A stretch of DNA of 64,000 nt. Source: Escherichia coli. GTDB taxonomy: Bacteria > Pseudomonadota > Gammaproteobacteria > Enterobacterales > Enterobacteriaceae. A program made the position numbers. Below, piece by piece: positions 53,701 to 59,700 of this stretch. Within the stretch, counting starts at the first letter, position 1, and each line of letters opens with the position of its first letter. The stretch lies in assembly GCF_030013595.1 (NCBI RefSeq), contig NZ_CP122769.1. One strand, written 5' to 3'.

Positions 53701-56700
53701 GAAATATACAGAACTCGTGCCGGGGGCTGAGCTGGGCATTTTCATTGTCAGCCCCGAAAATTAAGGAACAACAATGCAATGGATTTCCACAGCCAGCCAG
53801 AAAATCGATGAGCGTCTCTATCGTGTCTGCGTCTGGGTAAAAAAATATCACGCTGATGCGATTAACCGCGTTGTGCTTACCGTTGATCTAAGTAAAGCCC
53901 GACATGACCCTGACGAGGACCAGGTAAGAGCAGAGCTGCTGTGCGGCCATTATTTTTTGCTTCGTAAGGAAAACGCTTCGAACTCTGCGCCTGACGATCA
54001 AAAGTTTGCTTTCCTGCCTGACGGGCGCAATCTGTGTTGGCAGACCGCAACCCCGGTGCTTCAGCATCTCCTGCTCAATAAAAACGTTCCTGAGTCGCTG
54101 AGGTTGCTTACGGACTACATACATATGCGTCTGGCCAGGCTGACAATGGTACCAATGTCCGGAACCATCATGAACGAGGCTCTGCTGGACAGCATCAGCT
54201 GGGTTAAGGTGGATTTGACCTACTTCTGGCAGTATGAACAGCTCAGCTCTCATCTGGGACCCATCCAGATAACCCACAAGGCACTAGTACGCTTCGGGCA
54301 TCTGGCAAAGAATGATGAAAACTCCAGTGCCATAAGAATCCTGCGTCAGCGTCTGTCTTCAGAATTCTTACAAGAATTTCAGATGGCTGAGGATGAGCTA
54401 AAGCGCAAACAGTCGTTGATGGGCACCATGGACGTGAAAATGCTGTTTCATGCTCATTACCCCAGCCAGAAGATGCTGGTGGCTCGATATAAAAATGGTT
54501 GGGTAATGGTGGATTGTTTTCTGTTTCATCATACCAAACCTAAGAAAAAAGCAAAAAACAAAACTACTGTGGCTAAGCCTCAACTTAAAGAGACTAAAAG
54601 AGAAGGGAGTGAAAATGGAACTGGGCATTATGGTGTGCATCGTGTTGTTACTCTCCGTGGCGGCGGCGTGGATCAGTAATAAGACAGTTGATTTGCTCGA
54701 AAGATTCTATTTCAAGCGTCCGCTGAGCATGGAGTACGCGGCATGGCTACGTGTAATGTGTGCAGGCTTGTTATTGGTTTTTATTCAGGTTGCTCCACAA
54801 TTTACACTTCTGTATACCCTTAAACTTGTCACGCTTATTAATCTTGGAATCCAGACAATGAAATTAAATGGCGTGTACAAATATAAAAGAACGGGAATTT
54901 TGCCTCCGGGAGGGGCACTCTCTAATCTCACCAGACTTAACCCGTTCAAGAAAAAATAAAGTTATGCGCCCGTGAGGGCGCTATTCATCAAAGGCATTTC
55001 GCATAAGCTTGATCATTGCTTTTTTACCAGCTTCAATATTACGAATGTAGCGCATAACCATTTCTTCATTCGACCAGTTCCCCATTTCCATAATCTGTGG
55101 TAGCGAGTAACCTTCAATATTTAGCTGTATCGCTCCGCCTACACGAACGCTGTGCCCTGTCCAGTAACGAGTTTTAGTCTCATTTGGATAAAGCTCATTC
55201 CACATCTCTTTAAATGCTCGTAAAAGGGAATTTTTGCTGAGCATACCGGCATCGTCCACAGTGTCTTCTTCATCTTCATCTTCATCGTTCAGAAGACTTT
55301 GCTTAGCACGATAGGGTAGGTTATGCCTTTTAAGAAGTTCAGATAGCTCATTCCCCTTACTCCGAAGCTTCCAGCCGGGTGGCATATAGCCTGTATCATG
55401 GAAATTTACGGCCTGGAAAAGGAATTCATCCGGATGACTGTGCTGATCCATTTTCACGAGGTTCATCAATCTCAAGAGGCAGTTAGTTAACTGACGTGTC
55501 AGCCGGTAGGTAAGAAGTGTACTAATGTTCGTTTTTGTACGGTATACCGTCAGGTTAAATTCACCGGTCATACTATCCAGAGACAGATCTTTCAGACGTA
55601 TACGTCGAATTTCGGATGAACGGAGCAGTGTTTCAAAGCCTGTCCAGATCAGGCACAGGTCACGAAGTTTACGAACTGAGTTTGTAGTACTGCGTAACTT
55701 TATCAGAGCCTTGAGATCGCCAATAAGAAAGGGAGTTGCCTGTTTAGTCGTCTTTCGCTTCCGGGCTTCCGATTGTTTTAAGGCTTCCAGCATGTACCAT
55801 GCTTCAGACGTAATAATCCCGGGCAGGTTAAGCCCTTTTTTATGGATACTATTTAAGGCCTGAAGACAGCTGTTTATGCTGCTTCGTGACAATTTGCCTT
55901 CAAGATGCCCCATAAACGCAAGCAGAGCGTCCTCAGACACGGGGAGCGAACTTACTGGCCAGTCTGTATGCAACCGGGCATTCGCCAGATACCATTCGTT
56001 CCATACTCGTAGCCAGTGCAGATAGGTTTTAGCAGTGTTGTATCTCAGATGGGAAAAGTAACGGATCAAGCGTGAAAGCTGTTTATCATGGTTGCCGAAC
56101 GTTTCCAGCTGCTGATGCAATTCGCTTTCCGAAAACTGTCTGATCACTGATTGATTCTTCATCCTGCTCACCGGGATACACTGGTTTTAATTACAGGTCA
56201 TTTTAGCACTCATGTACCTGGTTATGAACAGGGTGGAAACAACGAAAAAGGTTGTGAAATCGTTAGGCTTAAGTGAAAAATGATATTAAGATTATCCTTG
56301 GCCAGTTGAGGCCTGTCTAAAGAAGGTTGATTATGTCTGACACAAAGCAGTCTTATTTAATGAAATTCCGTAAGTGTAGTTCGTTCGAAACGCTCGAAAA
56401 AGTATTTGAAAGGTTATGTGAAAAAAACTCGGGTGTCGCCTCTCTTGAAATTTCTGGTGCTTATGATCATCGTAAAGCCGAACTGACAATGAAAAAGTTA
56501 TATGACAAAGTTCCTGCGAGTGTGTGGACCTTTGTTCGCGAGTAATTATTAATATTGGCACAACAAAAAGACTGTGCCTGGATTTGAAAATAGTTTATGC
56601 CCCTTTCGGGGCTAAAGGCATTGTAATAGCCTGTCTTTTAAAGTTGTTTATTAAGTTCGGAGAAAAACTTTAATCATAAGCCAAGCCCACTGCTAAATAC

Positions 56701-59700
56701 ATCCGATATTCTCCTTCATTTTATTAGAAGTGATAAAAGTTACTTTACCTAAACTTCTCTCTCAATATTTGTAAGGCTCTCATTTGATTTTTGTCAAACA
56801 TTAATCTGGAAGACGGAAAAATCATTTCTTTTAATACGTTTTACAGAAATCCTCCTCCGTTATTTCGGATATAGTTTGAATCATTATCAAAAACGGGGTG
56901 CAGCCATGCGTAAGAGTTATACATTTGGTATTCCATTTGGACTCCAGCGTGAATCAGGACTCTTTTTAGATATTACAGAGGTCAGCCGGGGTATTGACTG
57001 TAACTGCATCTGCCCCGCTTGCAAAACTGATCTGTTAGCAAAGCAGGGGGAGGTCAAGCTTTGGCATTTCTCACACAGTACAGCTGTAGCCGGTGACTGT
57101 GATGGTCTGATGGAAGCCATCCGGGGAAAGATTATTGAAGTCATCAACGAGCACCAGGTTCTTGGTTTCCCAAATCTTCTCGCTGGCGACGATGGTGGGC
57201 CGGTTTCACTGAATGAGGTTAGTGGAAGCGGCAGTATGTTCGGAGGCACAGCTGATCTGTTCGTAAAGGTTAATGATTTATGTGTGGCCGTCTTTCTGGA
57301 CAGGGATCGCAGCATTTCAGAGAAGTTAACCTTTGACCATCTTCATCCTTCCGAAAGAGTTGCCGCATTGCGTATCGATCTTCCTGATATTGAATATGAA
57401 ATCAGTCAGGTGCAGCTCGGGCGACGTAAAACAACATACAGTGAGTGCATTGAAAGCCTGATCATTGATGAGACCAGTTCCCGGGAATGGCTATATCATC
57501 CATTAATGCATGAACTTGAATCTGAACCTCTTCAGGAGTATCGGGGACGGGAGCCTTCAGAGGAAGGGCCTCTTCTTCAGCGCCTTGCTGACTGTAAGAT
57601 GAAATTGCCTGATATCCTTCCGGGCAGTCATAACGCGCTAGTCAGGTTACAGCAGGATACGATTGTATGTCTGTGTCGGTTAACGGTTCGGGCTTATGAC
57701 ATCGCTCAGACCGATGAATTTCCTTTGTTCCTTCGCTATTTCAGGTTGCACTGCCTGGAAAACAGCGAACATGTCAGTTACGAAAGACTGATCTGCTGGC
57801 AGGAAATGATTTCAAAAACCCAGGAAGGCCAGTCCTTGACACAAAACGAACTTGAATATCTTCATGAGATTGTCCGCATCGCCTTTTACAATCACCGGCT
57901 TAACAATGTCAGTATTTCAGATGTTAAAAACCATGACACTGGAAAGAAGAGCGGCAGGGTAGAGTCACAAAACTATTCACTTTTATAAATAACTTGGGCT
58001 TTGCGCATTAAACCCTTGCCGCAGGCGGTGTACCGCATATCCGGCACAGACAGTCAGTTTTTTCTGGCAGCTTAAATTTGACACTGCTTAATATAGTGAT
58101 TCATTAAACAGGTTCAGTATGCTGCCAGAACGTTTTAGTCGTAATGGGCGTCCGTTAGTTTTCAACTAACTGAACGACGACCAGCCTGCCGCCTTCCTCC
58201 TTTGACAGAACAAACTGAGCGTTATTCGTCAGTTCAATTTTTTCCCCAATGGCAATCTGTCGTTTATCCGGTAATGACATAAGCCCATTTATGCCTTCAT
58301 TTACTAACCACCACTGATCGTTATGGAAAACAAAATACCCAACTCGTTTCCTTTGTGCATCGGTTGTGCGCTCATTTGGCGCAATGAGGCGATTCACATG
58401 CCACGCATAGATTGACTGCCCGCTCCACACCATCAACCGGTGGTCGTCAGGACGATAACTGCCTTCCTTTCGGGATGAATATAAATTTAGAACCGGTAAT
58501 TTACCCTTGTATGGCGTACCGCAGTAGGGACAAACCGGCTTTGTCTTACCTGAGAAAACGTACCATTTCTGTTCACACGCCTTGTTCTGGCAGGGCTGTA
58601 TCAGATCGACTGTTTTAACCAGGGCACTTTCCCACTCATCGGCGGTCGGGCGTTTATTGGCATCGTGTAAGCCATCAATAAAGGCGCGTTCAAACAAAGG
58701 CGTCAAATAAGGGCCCATGATGGTGTAAGGAATTTTCTCCGGGTCAGCCCAGGGCAGTGAAAAGGAGGATATCTGACTGACTTTGACTGCATTGCTTTTG
58801 TCTGTCGGATGTTCAATGAAGAGTGCCTTCTCACCCATAGATAAGGTCTCATCACGTACTTCATCCGACATGTCATGTATTTTTCCGCCACGTAGCGGAT
58901 GACGGAAGAACAGATACATGTAGATAAGCACCGACAGCGCATGACGGTCAGTAGAAATGCTTGGCAATACGCGGTTCGGATCCTCTTTGGAAAGATGGCT
59001 GGTTTTCACCACTTCCGGAGCGATAAAATCCGGGGTGCCCACGACGTCGGGAGGATACTTTCCAGGGACAACCAGGCCGTCTACGTCAATGATGCAGGCA
59101 TGTCCCATTTCTGGATCGATAAGCACGTTTTTATAGCTTAGATCGCTGTGACAGAGACCTGCCGCATGCATCCTTCTGACGGCTCTTGTTAGCAGCAGAC
59201 AGACCTTGAGATAGGTAAGCGTATTGCCTCGTTCACGTGGGTCGAGAAATTTATTCTGGTTGCTGGCGCTGGCAAACCATTTGCCTTCCTTTTCACGGCC
59301 TTTTATGCCAAGAAAATCATCGTTTTTAGAGCCGTATTTAAAGAAAAAGTAGCTTTTGTAGGTTGGAACCACGATGCCGATTTTATCCCCATGCTCAACA
59401 ACGTGGGTCGGCCAGCAAAACAGGTCCTTCCAGTATTCACCTCCGGACTGGCCAAAAATGTTTTGCCTGTAGCGTCCGGTGATCATATCAATCCGATCCC
59501 GGGCCTGCTCGTTCTGCGGTTTATGATAAAAAGCGACGACGTATGATTTATCAGGCGAGAAGTAAACATCCTTCATCGAGCCCGAACCAATTACCTCGTC
59601 AACATACTGGACTGTTTCGCCGTCCTTTGTTTTGCACGTAACAATATTTGCCATATTGATCACCGAAGAAGCGTATCCCTTACCACAACACCGCAATAGT

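What the first reader, a model, noticed from the sequence alone, without database searches (positions are those of the whole stretch)
54981..57988. Tyrosine recombinase, hha and a CoiA-like gene clustered before the TerY-P locus
A plasmid Hha homologue is very well supported. Hha/H-NS-type proteins encoded by IncHI plasmids are known to modulate thermosensitive conjugation and to silence plasmid genes. The adjacent tyrosine recombinase could be a multimer-resolution or integrase function. The CoiA-like protein is unusual on a plasmid and may be a nuclease-type factor of unknown role.
Basis: partly seen in the sequence, partly recalled or inferred. Interest (0 to 1): 0.4.

Follow-up and report, generated by a model that had tools for sequence, protein, structure and literature searches.

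The report
IncHI plasmid recombinase–Hha–CoiA-like gene block
Three neighbouring genes on an IncHI2 resistance plasmid (a Cre-type recombinase, the gene-silencing helper Hha and a zinc-finger/nuclease-fold protein) are a long-known, conserved piece of the plasmid backbone, and the one new point is that the recombinase gene carries a conserved SOS (LexA) operator.

Summary
The three ORFs are real and lie at the stated coordinates. The window is IncHI2 plasmid backbone, identical in hundreds of sequenced plasmids.

- **Hha:** a bona fide Hha/YmoA protein, 90% identical to the Hha encoded at R27's hha locus (R0182), the plasmid Hha studied experimentally.
- **Recombinase:** Cre-type rather than Xer-type. 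All solved-structure hits are Cre and all six catalytic residues are kept. It is the orthologue of R27 R0183, already annotated "put. cre".
- **"CoiA-like" protein:** it has the CoiA_N zinc-finger domain and a confidently modelled restriction-endonuclease-like core. It misses Pfam's CoiA nuclease family, has Ala where CoiA's essential β3 Glu sits, and carries a clade-specific helical C-terminus.

The order Tus, two ORFs, recombinase, Hha, CoiA-like is conserved in seven divergent IncHI-type lineages. Adjacency to TerY-P is IncHI2-specific and incidental.

New here: a LexA box abuts the recombinase's extended −10 promoter in all seven lineages, and it outscores the proven intI1 box on the same plasmid. 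No lox-like site lies next to the gene, although the same scan recovers loxP as a control. A single-copy 13-8-13 palindrome near the skew-defined terminus is a weak candidate target.

Overall this is ordinary, known backbone with one testable regulatory prediction.

The parts
54981..56162 (-). Cre-type tyrosine recombinase, 393 aa from the ATG (396 aa from an upstream GTG at 56171). Orthologue of R27 R0183.
   Evidence: Pfam Phage_integrase 2e-13. All 17 PDB sequence hits are Cre or Tre, best 1.9e-23. 27% identity to Cre over the full length, with R173/K201/H289/R292/W315/Y324 equivalents conserved and a ~40-aa acidic insertion. 64% identical to the R27-type protein.
56179..56198 (.). Predicted LexA (SOS) box. 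Plus strand CACTGGTTTTAATTACAGGT; recombinase strand ACCTGTAATTAAAACCAGTG.
   Evidence: Top PWM hit in the 64-kb window, score 15.6. P = 0.0004 in Markov resamples of the 250-bp region. The orthologous position holds the top hit in all 6 other lineages, scores 15.9-23.3. The only invariant columns within +/-45 nt are CTG...CAGT. It outscores the intI1 LexA box on the same plasmid, 14.9.
56200..56228 (-). Sigma-70 promoter of the recombinase: TTCATA, 17 nt, TAAAAT, with a TG-extended -10.
   Evidence: Found independently by the promoter scan. A TAnnnT hexamer abuts the LexA box in all seven lineages. The box starts 2 nt after the -10, so it covers the expected transcription start.
54966..54981 (.). 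GC-rich hairpin GCGCCC-GTGA-GGGCGC between the convergent small ORF and the recombinase. Likely a bidirectional terminator.
   Evidence: Read directly from the sequence. An equivalent hairpin is present in IncHI1 and Pantoea. Not flagged by the terminator scan, so this is weak.
56333..56545 (+). hha: Hha/YmoA-family H-NS co-regulator, 70 aa. Orthologue of R27 R0182.
   Evidence: Pfam HHA 9.3e-19 and NCBIfam Hha subfamily 2.7e-21. PDB Hha/YmoA 4e-16. 90% identity to the IncHI1/R27-type Hha and 50% to E. coli Hha.
56906..57988 (+). CoiA_N zinc-finger plus restriction-endonuclease-like fold plus helical C-terminal domain protein, 360 aa. Probable orthologue of R27 R0176.
52784..54959 (+). Upstream syntenic partners: Tus-like protein (52784-53764), a conserved ~300-aa ORF (53774-54679) and a ~110-aa hydrophobic ORF (54609-54959).
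   Evidence: Pfam Ter 4.6e-19. Same order in IncHI1, Pantoea, Klebsiella and three metagenomic lineages.

Best explanation
The region is a conserved block of the IncHI-type plasmid backbone. It consists of three separately transcribed genes and lies next to the plasmid's own Tus gene, in the terminus half of the replicon.

(1) hha encodes a small Hha-family protein. It binds H-NS, both chromosomal and the plasmid copy encoded elsewhere on the plasmid, and helps silence plasmid genes such as the transfer operons at 37 C. This is shown for the R27 orthologue and inferred here.

(2) The divergent gene encodes a catalytically complete Cre-type site-specific recombinase. Its extended -10 promoter is overlapped by a LexA operator, so it is predicted to be held low by LexA and induced by the SOS response (DNA damage, ssDNA entry, high RecA activity). 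This step is inferred from sequence and comparative evidence. Its most likely job is Cre-like resolution of plasmid multimers, which arise by RecA recombination, at a target that, unlike loxP, is not next to the gene. This step is inferred and weakly supported.

(3) The third gene encodes a C2H2-type zinc-finger plus restriction-endonuclease-fold plus helical-domain protein. It is related to CoiA by architecture but is not a member of that family. It most likely binds DNA or branched DNA, and it lacks the canonical second acidic catalytic residue, so nuclease activity is doubtful.

The TerY-P genes next door are an IncHI2-specific neighbour and not part of the block.
For: Identity and family.

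Synteny: Tus, orf~300, orf~110, recombinase(-), Hha(+), CoiA_N(+) in IncHI2, IncHI1/R27, Pantoea IncHI1B, Klebsiella IncHI1B/FIB (recombinase only 37-39% identical; CoiA_N gene cut by an IS) and three metagenomic lineages. Neighbours beyond the CoiA_N gene differ in every lineage.

LexA box:
- It is the top PWM hit of each whole locus in 7 of 7 lineages.
- P <= 6e-4 per 250-bp region.
- Only CTG/CAGT is invariant amid diverged flanks, always abutting a TAnnnT -10 and 15-26 nt before the start codon.
- The promoter was found independently.
- Plasmid-wide positive controls: in R27 the two best boxes are umuD (23.6) and R0183 (19.5), with the next at 13.9. In IncHI2 the box (15.6) outscores the intI1 box (14.9).

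Expression: in R27, R0176, R0182 (hha) and R0183 are all transcribed and all higher at 37 C (5.2x, 2.5x and 2.4x) (PMC7366339).

Terminus location: R27 detrended GC skew has its minimum at the RepHI1 origins (40-55 kb) and its maximum at ~150 kb, with the block at 154-163 kb.

Against: No experiment addresses SOS control.

The IncHI2 box score (15.6) is at the low end of real boxes, and a score that high occurs somewhere in 11.5% of resampled 64-kb sequences.

R0183 shows substantial microarray signal without SOS induction.

Multimer resolution is unsupported by phenotype. Single deletions of R0182-R0186 left R27 stability unchanged in MG1655 (PMC4853401; data not shown in that paper, and not tested under SOS).

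No lox-type site was found within about 10 kb in any lineage, and no loxP-like pair exists anywhere on R27 or IncHI2.

Confidence: 0.6

Rival explanations
1. The recombinase is not a resolvase. It is an integrase or rearrangement enzyme that, when SOS-induced, joins or inverts DNA at secondary sites, for example cointegrate formation or capture and exchange of accessory modules at the variable junction just beyond the CoiA_N gene. This would parallel SOS-controlled integron integrases.
For: LexA control has its known precedent in integron integrases (PMC3108266; the intI1 box was recovered). Synteny breaks immediately after the CoiA_N gene in every lineage. There is no adjacent single lox site. 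R0183 deletion has no stability phenotype.
Against: No repeated or paired recombination sites flank the variable DNA. The palindrome found there in IncHI1 and Pantoea is a widespread element on plasmids that lack this enzyme. Sequence affinity is to Cre, a simple resolvase-type enzyme without arm-binding domains.
Confidence: 0.2
2. The CTG-N10-CAG element is not a LexA operator. It is a chance or lineage-inherited palindrome, or the operator of another regulator (for example recombinase autoregulation), and the recombinase is expressed constitutively.
For: The IncHI2 score is modest, and 11.5% of resampled 64-kb sequences reach it. R0183 is well expressed without induction. The seven lineages share ancestry, so conservation is not seven independent events. 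The PWM was recalled from memory.
Against: Flanks have diverged beyond alignment, while exactly the LexA-critical CTG and CAG triplets and their 10-nt spacing are invariant, down to 37%-identical recombinases. The Klebsiella site, TACTGGTTATAAAAACAGTA, is near-consensus. In R27 it ranks second only to umuD in 180 kb.
Confidence: 0.15
3. The CoiA_N protein is an active structure-specific nuclease. It could work like CoiA on D-loops or branched DNA, or as a defence or anti-defence nuclease, using a non-canonical active site (D117 plus D132/D134/R135).
For: It has a restriction-endonuclease-like fold and a nearly invariant D117 at the beta2 position. CoiA itself has an atypical site. A distant relative sits in an operon with a helicase-nuclease and an SMC-like ATPase. 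D132, D134 and R135 are invariant within the IncHI clade.
Against: The beta3 Glu that is essential in CoiA (E105) is Ala in the IncHI clade and absent in most of the superfamily. There is no PADLOC hit and no PF06054 hit. Deleting the R27 region containing R0176 gave no stability phenotype.
Confidence: 0.25
4. The three genes work together with the adjacent TerY-P kinase/phosphatase/VWA triad as one stress-response system.
For: Physical adjacency in IncHI2 only.
Against: In IncHI1, Pantoea, Klebsiella and three further lineages the block is intact with no TerY-P genes nearby. The TerY-P genes are convergent, on the opposite strand. G+C content rises from about 0.44 to about 0.53 across the boundary.
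Confidence: 0.03

Closest known systems
Bacteriophage/plasmid P1 Cre-loxP
   Same: Same recombinase subfamily. All PDB hits are Cre, the alignment is full length, and the catalytic hexad R-K-H-R-W-Y is kept. It is carried by a low-copy plasmid-type replicon, where Cre's natural role is dimer resolution (my own knowledge: Austin, Ziese & Sternberg 1981). A LexA-like box also lies between loxP and cra-cre in a P1-type plasmid.
   Different: Only 27% identity, with a ~40-residue acidic insertion. No 13-8-13 site within 1 kb or even 10 kb, whereas the same scan finds loxP 452 bp from cre and a loxP-like site 80 bp from a Plesiomonas homologue. It is embedded next to Tus and Hha.
R27 (IncHI1) ORFs R0182 (hha), R0183 ('put. 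cre'), R0176
   Same: Direct orthologues: 90%, 64% and 74% identity, in the same order, with Tus (R0186) alongside. Hha's role with H-NS in thermoregulated conjugation is established for R27.
   Different: In R27 an IS1-RepFIA-IS1 insertion separates hha from R0176. In IncHI2 the ter/TerY-P DNA follows the block.
Integron integrase IntI1 (LexA-repressed tyrosine recombinase)
   Same: A tyrosine recombinase gene whose promoter is overlapped by a LexA box (PMC3108266). The intI1 box on this very plasmid scores 14.9, against 15.6 for the Cre-type gene.
   Different: A different subfamily: IntI has the extra attC-binding domain and acts on folded single-stranded attC. No cassette array is present here.
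Streptococcus pneumoniae CoiA (PF06054), transformation D-loop resolvase
   Same: Same architecture: N-terminal C2H2-type zinc finger, then a PD-(D/E)xK-fold core with Asp in beta2, then a long C-terminal region without signature.
   Different: No PF06054 match, the beta3 Glu is replaced by Ala, it is found in Enterobacterales plasmids whereas CoiA is restricted to Bacillota, and it is not competence-linked.
Chromosomal Tus/Ter plus XerCD/dif terminus organisation
   Same: A terminus-binding-protein gene and a site-specific tyrosine recombinase gene sit together near the skew-defined terminus of the replicon.
   Different: The recombinase is Cre-type, not Xer. No Ter core (GTTGTAAC) or dif-like site was identified near the block. 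The analogy is positional only.

Membership tests
Hha/YmoA family | Significant match to the family profile over the whole ~70-aa protein | tested here: met
   Pfam HHA 9.3e-19 (67.9 bits, cutoff 25), covering profile positions 1-56 of 57. PDB Hha/YmoA 4e-16.
Hha/YmoA family | Conserved H-NS-contacting acidic residue (E. coli Hha D48, in the DHR motif) and the C-terminal ELTMxKLYDKxPxSVW helix | tested here: met
   The alignment shows D45-H-R and AELTMKKLYDKVPASVW. The role of D48 is from my own knowledge of the Hha/H-NS structures.
Hha/YmoA family | Physical binding to the H-NS N-terminal domain and co-repression | not testable with these tools
   Shown for the R27 orthologue, which is 90% identical (citing Forns 2005). 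An hns gene is present on the IncHI2 plasmid outside the window, at NZ_CP015833.1 94464-94868.
Cre-type tyrosine recombinases | Catalytic residues R173, K201, H289, R292, W315 and Y324 (Cre numbering) | tested here: met
   All are aligned and identical in BLASTP versus Cre and phmmer versus PDB.
Cre-type tyrosine recombinases | Closest solved or characterised relatives are Cre-family, with a full-length two-domain alignment and a length of 300-400 aa | tested here: met
   All 17 of 17 PDB hits are Cre or Tre. Query residues 27-390 align to Cre residues 25-342. Length 393 aa. NCBIfam XerC/XerA give only 0.003-0.007, far below cutoff.
Cre-type tyrosine recombinases | A cognate 13-15-bp inverted repeat with an 8-bp spacer within ~1 kb of the gene (criterion of PMC10250229) | tested here: not met
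   No palindrome with <=2 mismatches within 1 kb, and none conserved within ~10 kb in 7 lineages. The controls loxP and a Plesiomonas lox-like site are recovered.
Cre-type tyrosine recombinases | Recombination between two copies of a defined site without accessory factors | not testable with these tools
   Requires an expression and reporter assay. The candidate site to try is the single-copy palindrome ACAATGGGATTTA-ATTAGGAG-TAAATCCCATAGG.
LexA (SOS) regulon | CTGT-N8-ACAG-type 20-bp palindrome scoring within the range of proven boxes | tested here: met
   Scores 15.6-23.3 against a training range of 12.7-25.8, and above the intI1 box at 14.9. The PWM was recalled from memory.
LexA (SOS) regulon | Operator overlaps the promoter or transcription start | tested here: met
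   The box begins 2 nt downstream of the -10 of TTCATA-17-TAAAAT.
LexA (SOS) regulon | LexA binding and DNA-damage inducibility | not testable with these tools
   No data were found in the literature library.
CoiA (PF06054) competence nucleases | N-terminal C2H2-type zinc finger (CoiA_N) | tested here: met
   PF25164 at 6.3e-8, above cutoff. C36-x2-C39 ... H54-x2-H57 is invariant or near-invariant.
CoiA (PF06054) competence nucleases | Match to the CoiA nuclease-domain profile PF06054 | tested here: not met
   No hit at E <= 0.01 for this protein or for 20 superfamily relatives.
CoiA (PF06054) competence nucleases | PD-(D/E)xK fold with Asp in beta2 and Glu in beta3, both essential (S. pneumoniae D95 and E105) | tested here: not met
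   The fold is supported and D117 is present. The beta3 position is Ala128 (VAVFLD). A Glu is seen there only in rare relatives such as P0034 and P0056.
CoiA (PF06054) competence nucleases | Restricted to Bacillota and competence-induced | tested here: not met
   This protein is on Enterobacterales plasmids.

The most novel reading that the evidence does not exclude
IncHI-type plasmids may carry their own terminus-maintenance system, analogous to chromosomal Tus/Ter plus XerCD/dif but built from different parts. The parts would be a plasmid Tus, an SOS-induced Cre-type recombinase, and a distant target rather than an adjacent one. The candidate target is the strictly single-copy 13-8-13 palindrome ATGGGATTTA-N8-TAAATCCCAT, which lies at the GC-skew-defined terminus: R27 146.8 kb, about 2 kb from the antipode of RepHI1A, and IncHI2 about 97.6 kb. 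Under this reading, dimers made by RecA during SOS would be resolved where replication ends. The CoiA_N nuclease-fold protein could be an accessory DNA-branch-binding factor.
Probability: 0.12. Interest if true: 0.6.

Novelty: new member of a known kind. Interest (0 to 1): 0.3.

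Why it matters
IncHI1 and IncHI2 plasmids are major vehicles of multidrug resistance in Salmonella, E. coli, Enterobacter and Klebsiella, and related backbones carry Klebsiella virulence genes. Most of their backbone genes have no assigned function.

The genes in this finding are already catalogued, so the finding as written adds little. The added prediction is that the backbone's Cre-type recombinase is wired to the SOS response in every lineage. That ties a plasmid recombination function to antibiotic-induced DNA damage, as with integron integrases.

It also gives a simple explanation for why deleting the R27 orthologue showed no phenotype under unstressed laboratory growth. 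It is directly testable.

A Cre-type enzyme with a non-adjacent, non-loxP target would also interest people who mine such enzymes as genome-engineering tools, because current pipelines discard them (PMC10250229).

Tried and rejected
1. **Adjacent lox/resolution site.** I scanned for 13-bp arms with 6-8-bp spacers in the window and in seven lineages. Nothing with <=2 mismatches lies within 1 kb, and the 4-mismatch hits are at chance density. A degenerate loxP-like search of complete R27 and IncHI2 found nothing. The controls loxP and a Plesiomonas site are recovered.

2. **The 13-8-13 palindrome downstream of the CoiA_N gene in IncHI1 and Pantoea.** It looked like a lox site. I rejected it because it is a widespread 32-bp palindrome, TTAATGCTAATGTA-NNNN-TACATTAGCATTAA, with 9,747 copies in 4,199 plasmids of many Inc groups that lack this recombinase. 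It is also absent from the IncHI2 window.

3. **GC-rich perfect palindromes at 44959-44999 and 42198-42265.** These are intergenic hairpins between tandem paralogous genes. Their position is conserved but their sequence is not, so they are probably terminators.

4. **Ter core GTTGTAAC.** Only isolated, non-syntenic hits.

5. **Conserved block upstream of the recombinase as a lox half-site.** The arms do not extend beyond the LexA-type CTG/CAG, so I reinterpreted it as a promoter plus LexA box.

6. **Databases that gave nothing for the CoiA_N protein.** PADLOC, PHROGs, NCBIfam, Rfam on the region, and PDB by sequence or profile.

8. **H-NS gene in the window.** None found; it lies elsewhere on the plasmid.

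9. **Second LexA-like hit at 19890-19909.** It lies inside a 782-aa ORF and is judged to be chance.

Full report
**Observation.**
They are 54981-56171 (-), 56327-56545 (+) and 56876-57988 (+). RefSeq annotation of identical plasmids uses slightly shorter ATG starts, giving 393, 70 and 360 aa.

Pfam gives Phage_integrase (2e-13), HHA (9.3e-19) and CoiA_N (6.3e-8). The CoiA_N match covers only 27 residues. The downstream genes are a protein kinase, a PP2C phosphatase and a VWA+TerY_C protein, which is the TerY-P triad.

The 3.7-kb stretch is 100% identical to many IncHI2A/MOBH conjugative plasmids. It matches 1,496 PLSDB records from E. coli, Salmonella, Enterobacter and others.

**Hha.**
The 70-aa protein aligns end to end with E. 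coli Hha and Yersinia YmoA (E = 4e-16). This includes the DHR motif and the C-terminal helix. It is 50% identical to E. coli Hha. It is 90% identical to the IncHI1 Hha in locus L002. That protein carries the same accession (WP_001324690.1) as the Hha annotated at R27's hha locus.

In R27 this gene is R0182. It acts with H-NS to repress conjugation at 37 C, and it is itself more highly expressed at 37 C (PMC7366339, citing Forns et al. 2005). No hns gene lies in the window. The IncHI2 plasmid encodes one about 35 kb away.

**Recombinase.**
Every solved-structure hit is P1 Cre or its engineered derivative Tre, best E = 1.9e-23. Xer profiles score far below threshold. BLASTP against Cre aligns residues 27-390 with Cre residues 25-342 at 27% identity. 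The residues equivalent to R173, K201, H289, R292, W315 and Y324 are all conserved, and there is a ~40-residue acidic insertion.

The R27 orthologue, R0183, has been annotated as similar to "put. cre protein" since the original R27 annotation (supplement of PMC4853401). Cre-type enzymes normally have their 13-8-13 target within about 1 kb (PMC10250229). I found none here:
- There is no palindrome with <=2 mismatches within 1 kb.
- None is conserved in any intergenic region of the block in seven lineages.
- No degenerate loxP-like pair exists anywhere on complete R27 or IncHI2.

The same scripts recover loxP 452 bp from a P1-type cre. They also find a loxP-like site 80 bp from a Plesiomonas homologue. 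So the absence is real. Single deletions of R0182-R0186 did not change R27 stability in E. coli MG1655 (PMC4853401). That weakens the multimer-resolution idea but does not exclude it.

**A conserved LexA box.**
Aligning the recombinase-hha intergenic regions showed one conserved block just upstream of the recombinase. It consists of an extended -10 promoter followed by CTGT-N8-(A/C)CAG, the LexA-box consensus. The promoter, TTCATA-17-TAAAAT, was also picked independently by the promoter scan.

It makes this site the top hit of the entire locus in all seven lineages. Scores are 15.6 in the window and 15.9-23.3 elsewhere, against runners-up of <=12.5. Each 250-bp region reaches its score in <=0.06% of Markov resamples.

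Within +/-45 nt, the invariant columns are essentially the CTG and CAGT of the box. The box always abuts a TAnnnT hexamer, and the start codon follows 15-26 nt later. Plasmid-wide scans give built-in positive controls:
- In R27 the best two boxes in 180 kb are umuD's (23.6) and R0183's (19.5), and the next scores 13.9.
- In IncHI2 the umuD box scores 26.2.
- The intI1 box scores 14.9, below the recombinase box at 15.6. That intI1 is LexA-controlled is documented in PMC3108266.

I found no paper describing this. There are caveats. The IncHI2 score is modest, and 11.5% of resampled 64-kb sequences reach it. R0183 is well expressed without induction. The lineages also share ancestry.

**CoiA-like protein.**
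The full-length family is narrow. The word-indexed search of 5.8 billion sequences returned 12 clusters, and the exhaustive profile search found three full-length representatives. Residues ~9-210, however, match about 4,000 cluster representatives, 658 of them at E <= 1e-10. Pfam sees only CoiA_N in these relatives.

The superfamily conserves a Cys/His cluster (C32, C34, C36, C39, H54, H57, C65), D117 and W195-x2-H198-P199.

Bona fide CoiA is defined by the following features (bioRxiv 10.1101/2024.02.06.579203):
- membership of PF06054;
- an N-terminal C2H2 finger;
- Asp in beta2 and Glu in beta3, both essential;
- a long C-terminal region;
- restriction to Bacillota.

The IncHI protein meets the finger, fold and Asp criteria. 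It has Ala at the Glu position, misses PF06054 and is enterobacterial. It therefore resembles CoiA in architecture but is not a member, and its nuclease activity is doubtful.

Relatives occur in varied contexts. One is a helicase-nuclease/SMC-like island. Another is an NTPase/DUF6933 operon on a different plasmid. Only the IncHI clade links it to Hha.

In R27 the probable orthologue is R0176, inferred from gene order. It is 5-fold higher at 37 C, and it is the only gene down-regulated in an htdA mutant.

**Context.**
The order Tus-like, ~300-aa ORF, ~110-aa ORF, recombinase (-), Hha (+), CoiA_N (+) recurs in seven lineages:
- IncHI2;
- IncHI1/R27;
- a Pantoea IncHI1B plasmid;
- Klebsiella IncHI1B/FIB plasmids, where the recombinase is 37-39% identical and the CoiA_N gene is cut by an IS;
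- three metagenomic lineages.

What follows the CoiA_N gene differs every time, and TerY-P follows it only in IncHI2. G+C content also rises across that boundary. The association with TerY-P is therefore incidental.

In R27 the detrended cumulative GC skew has its minimum at the RepHI1 origins and its maximum near 150 kb. The block sits at 154-163 kb, in the terminus region. Gene-orientation bias confounds this measure.

**Candidate distant target (weak).**
Comparing all 13-(6-8)-13 palindromes of complete R27 and IncHI2 gave one lox-like pair with conserved arms:
- R27 146785: ACGATGGGATTTA-CCCCGAAT-TAAATCCCATAGT
- IncHI2 about 97.6 kb: ACAATGGGATTTA-ATTAGGAG-TAAATCCCATAGG

The pair lies in a homologous ~400-bp non-coding block. 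It is strictly single-copy, with 1,390 places in 1,387 records, and it tracks the IncHI1/IncHI2 backbone. In IncHI2 only the palindrome core remains alignable. In R27 it lies about 2 kb from the antipode of RepHI1A and close to the skew maximum.

This fits a dif-like site, but it fits an operator equally well. I did not find it within 10 kb of the block in the other lineages. I give it about 0.12 probability.

**Verdict.**
The finding is real and correctly located, but it describes long-catalogued backbone genes. Hha is already known. The recombinase is a Cre-family member with an unusual non-adjacent (unknown) target and a predicted SOS switch. The third protein is a CoiA_N/nuclease-fold protein of unknown role that should not be called CoiA. 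Interest is modest, at 0.3, and the LexA prediction is the one item worth a bench test.

Noticed in passing
L002 1495-1528; L003 4200-4233; L014 4074 and 4615; L015 2506 and 4691; L016 2507: A near-perfect 32-bp palindrome, TTAATGCTAATGTA-(TGCG/CGCA)-TACATTAGCATTAA, occurs at 9,747 places in 4,199 plasmid records of many Inc groups. It is often present in 2-4 copies and in both orientations, sometimes flanking a gene. Its nature is unknown. It is absent from the IncHI2 window.
   Followed up: partly
L002 1509-1652 (+); L006 11228-11389 (+): A small hydrophobic ORF (47-55 aa, ...YI(T/A)GLIMIG(T/I)LFT...) lies next to that palindrome. In IncHI1 its ATG sits in the palindrome's centre. Its orientation relative to the CoiA_N gene is flipped between lineages. 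It could be a hairpin-controlled membrane peptide.
   Followed up: partly
window 52784-53764 (+): A plasmid-encoded Tus-like terminus-binding protein (Pfam Ter 4.6e-19) is conserved with the block in all lineages. No Ter-core sequence was identified nearby.
   Followed up: partly
R27 (NC_002305.1) 146785-146818 = L019 46785-46818; IncHI2 NZ_CP015833.1 ~97622 = L021 ~30623: A single-copy 13-8-13 palindrome, ATGGGATTTA-N8-TAAATCCCAT, lies in a conserved non-coding block near the plasmid hns gene and near the GC-skew maximum. It is a weak candidate target of the Cre-type recombinase.
   Followed up: partly
IncHI2 NZ_CP015833.1 record 106291 (L021 ~39292), outside the window: A very strong LexA-like box, TACTGTATGTATGTACAGCA (score 23.1), lies upstream of small uncharacterised genes. 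It is the second-best box on the plasmid after umuD.
   Followed up: no
L025 922-941 (P1-type plasmid NZ_CP027199.1): A LexA-like box, ACCTGTAAATCCATACAGTT (score 18.3), lies 29 bp downstream of loxP and upstream of cra-cre. I found no mention of it in the literature library.
   Followed up: partly
window 44959-44999; L005 1706-1738; L006 2157-2190; L008 824-857: Tandem paralogous ~310-aa genes upstream of the block are separated by strong GC-rich hairpins. The hairpin position is conserved but the sequence is not, so they are probably terminators or mRNA-stabilising elements.
   Followed up: no
R27 108459-108570; IncHI2 NZ_CP015833.1 ~170250-170320: An array of alternating inverted copies of AGTGACCCTATGT, about 22 bp apart, lies next to mobI in the oriT region. 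These are probably relaxosome-accessory binding sites.
   Followed up: no
window 59680-61320 (-) versus L001 14181-15817: The window has one continuous 546-aa PP2C ORF. RefSeq annotation of the near-identical plasmid NZ_CP015833.1 splits the region into a 294-aa PP2C phosphatase and a separate 162-aa hypothetical protein.
   Followed up: no
L004 3266-5484 (Klebsiella IncHI1B/FIB plasmid): The CoiA_N gene following hha is interrupted near its 5' end by an IS-like insertion. The N-terminal zinc-finger coding part survives as a separate fragment.
   Followed up: partly
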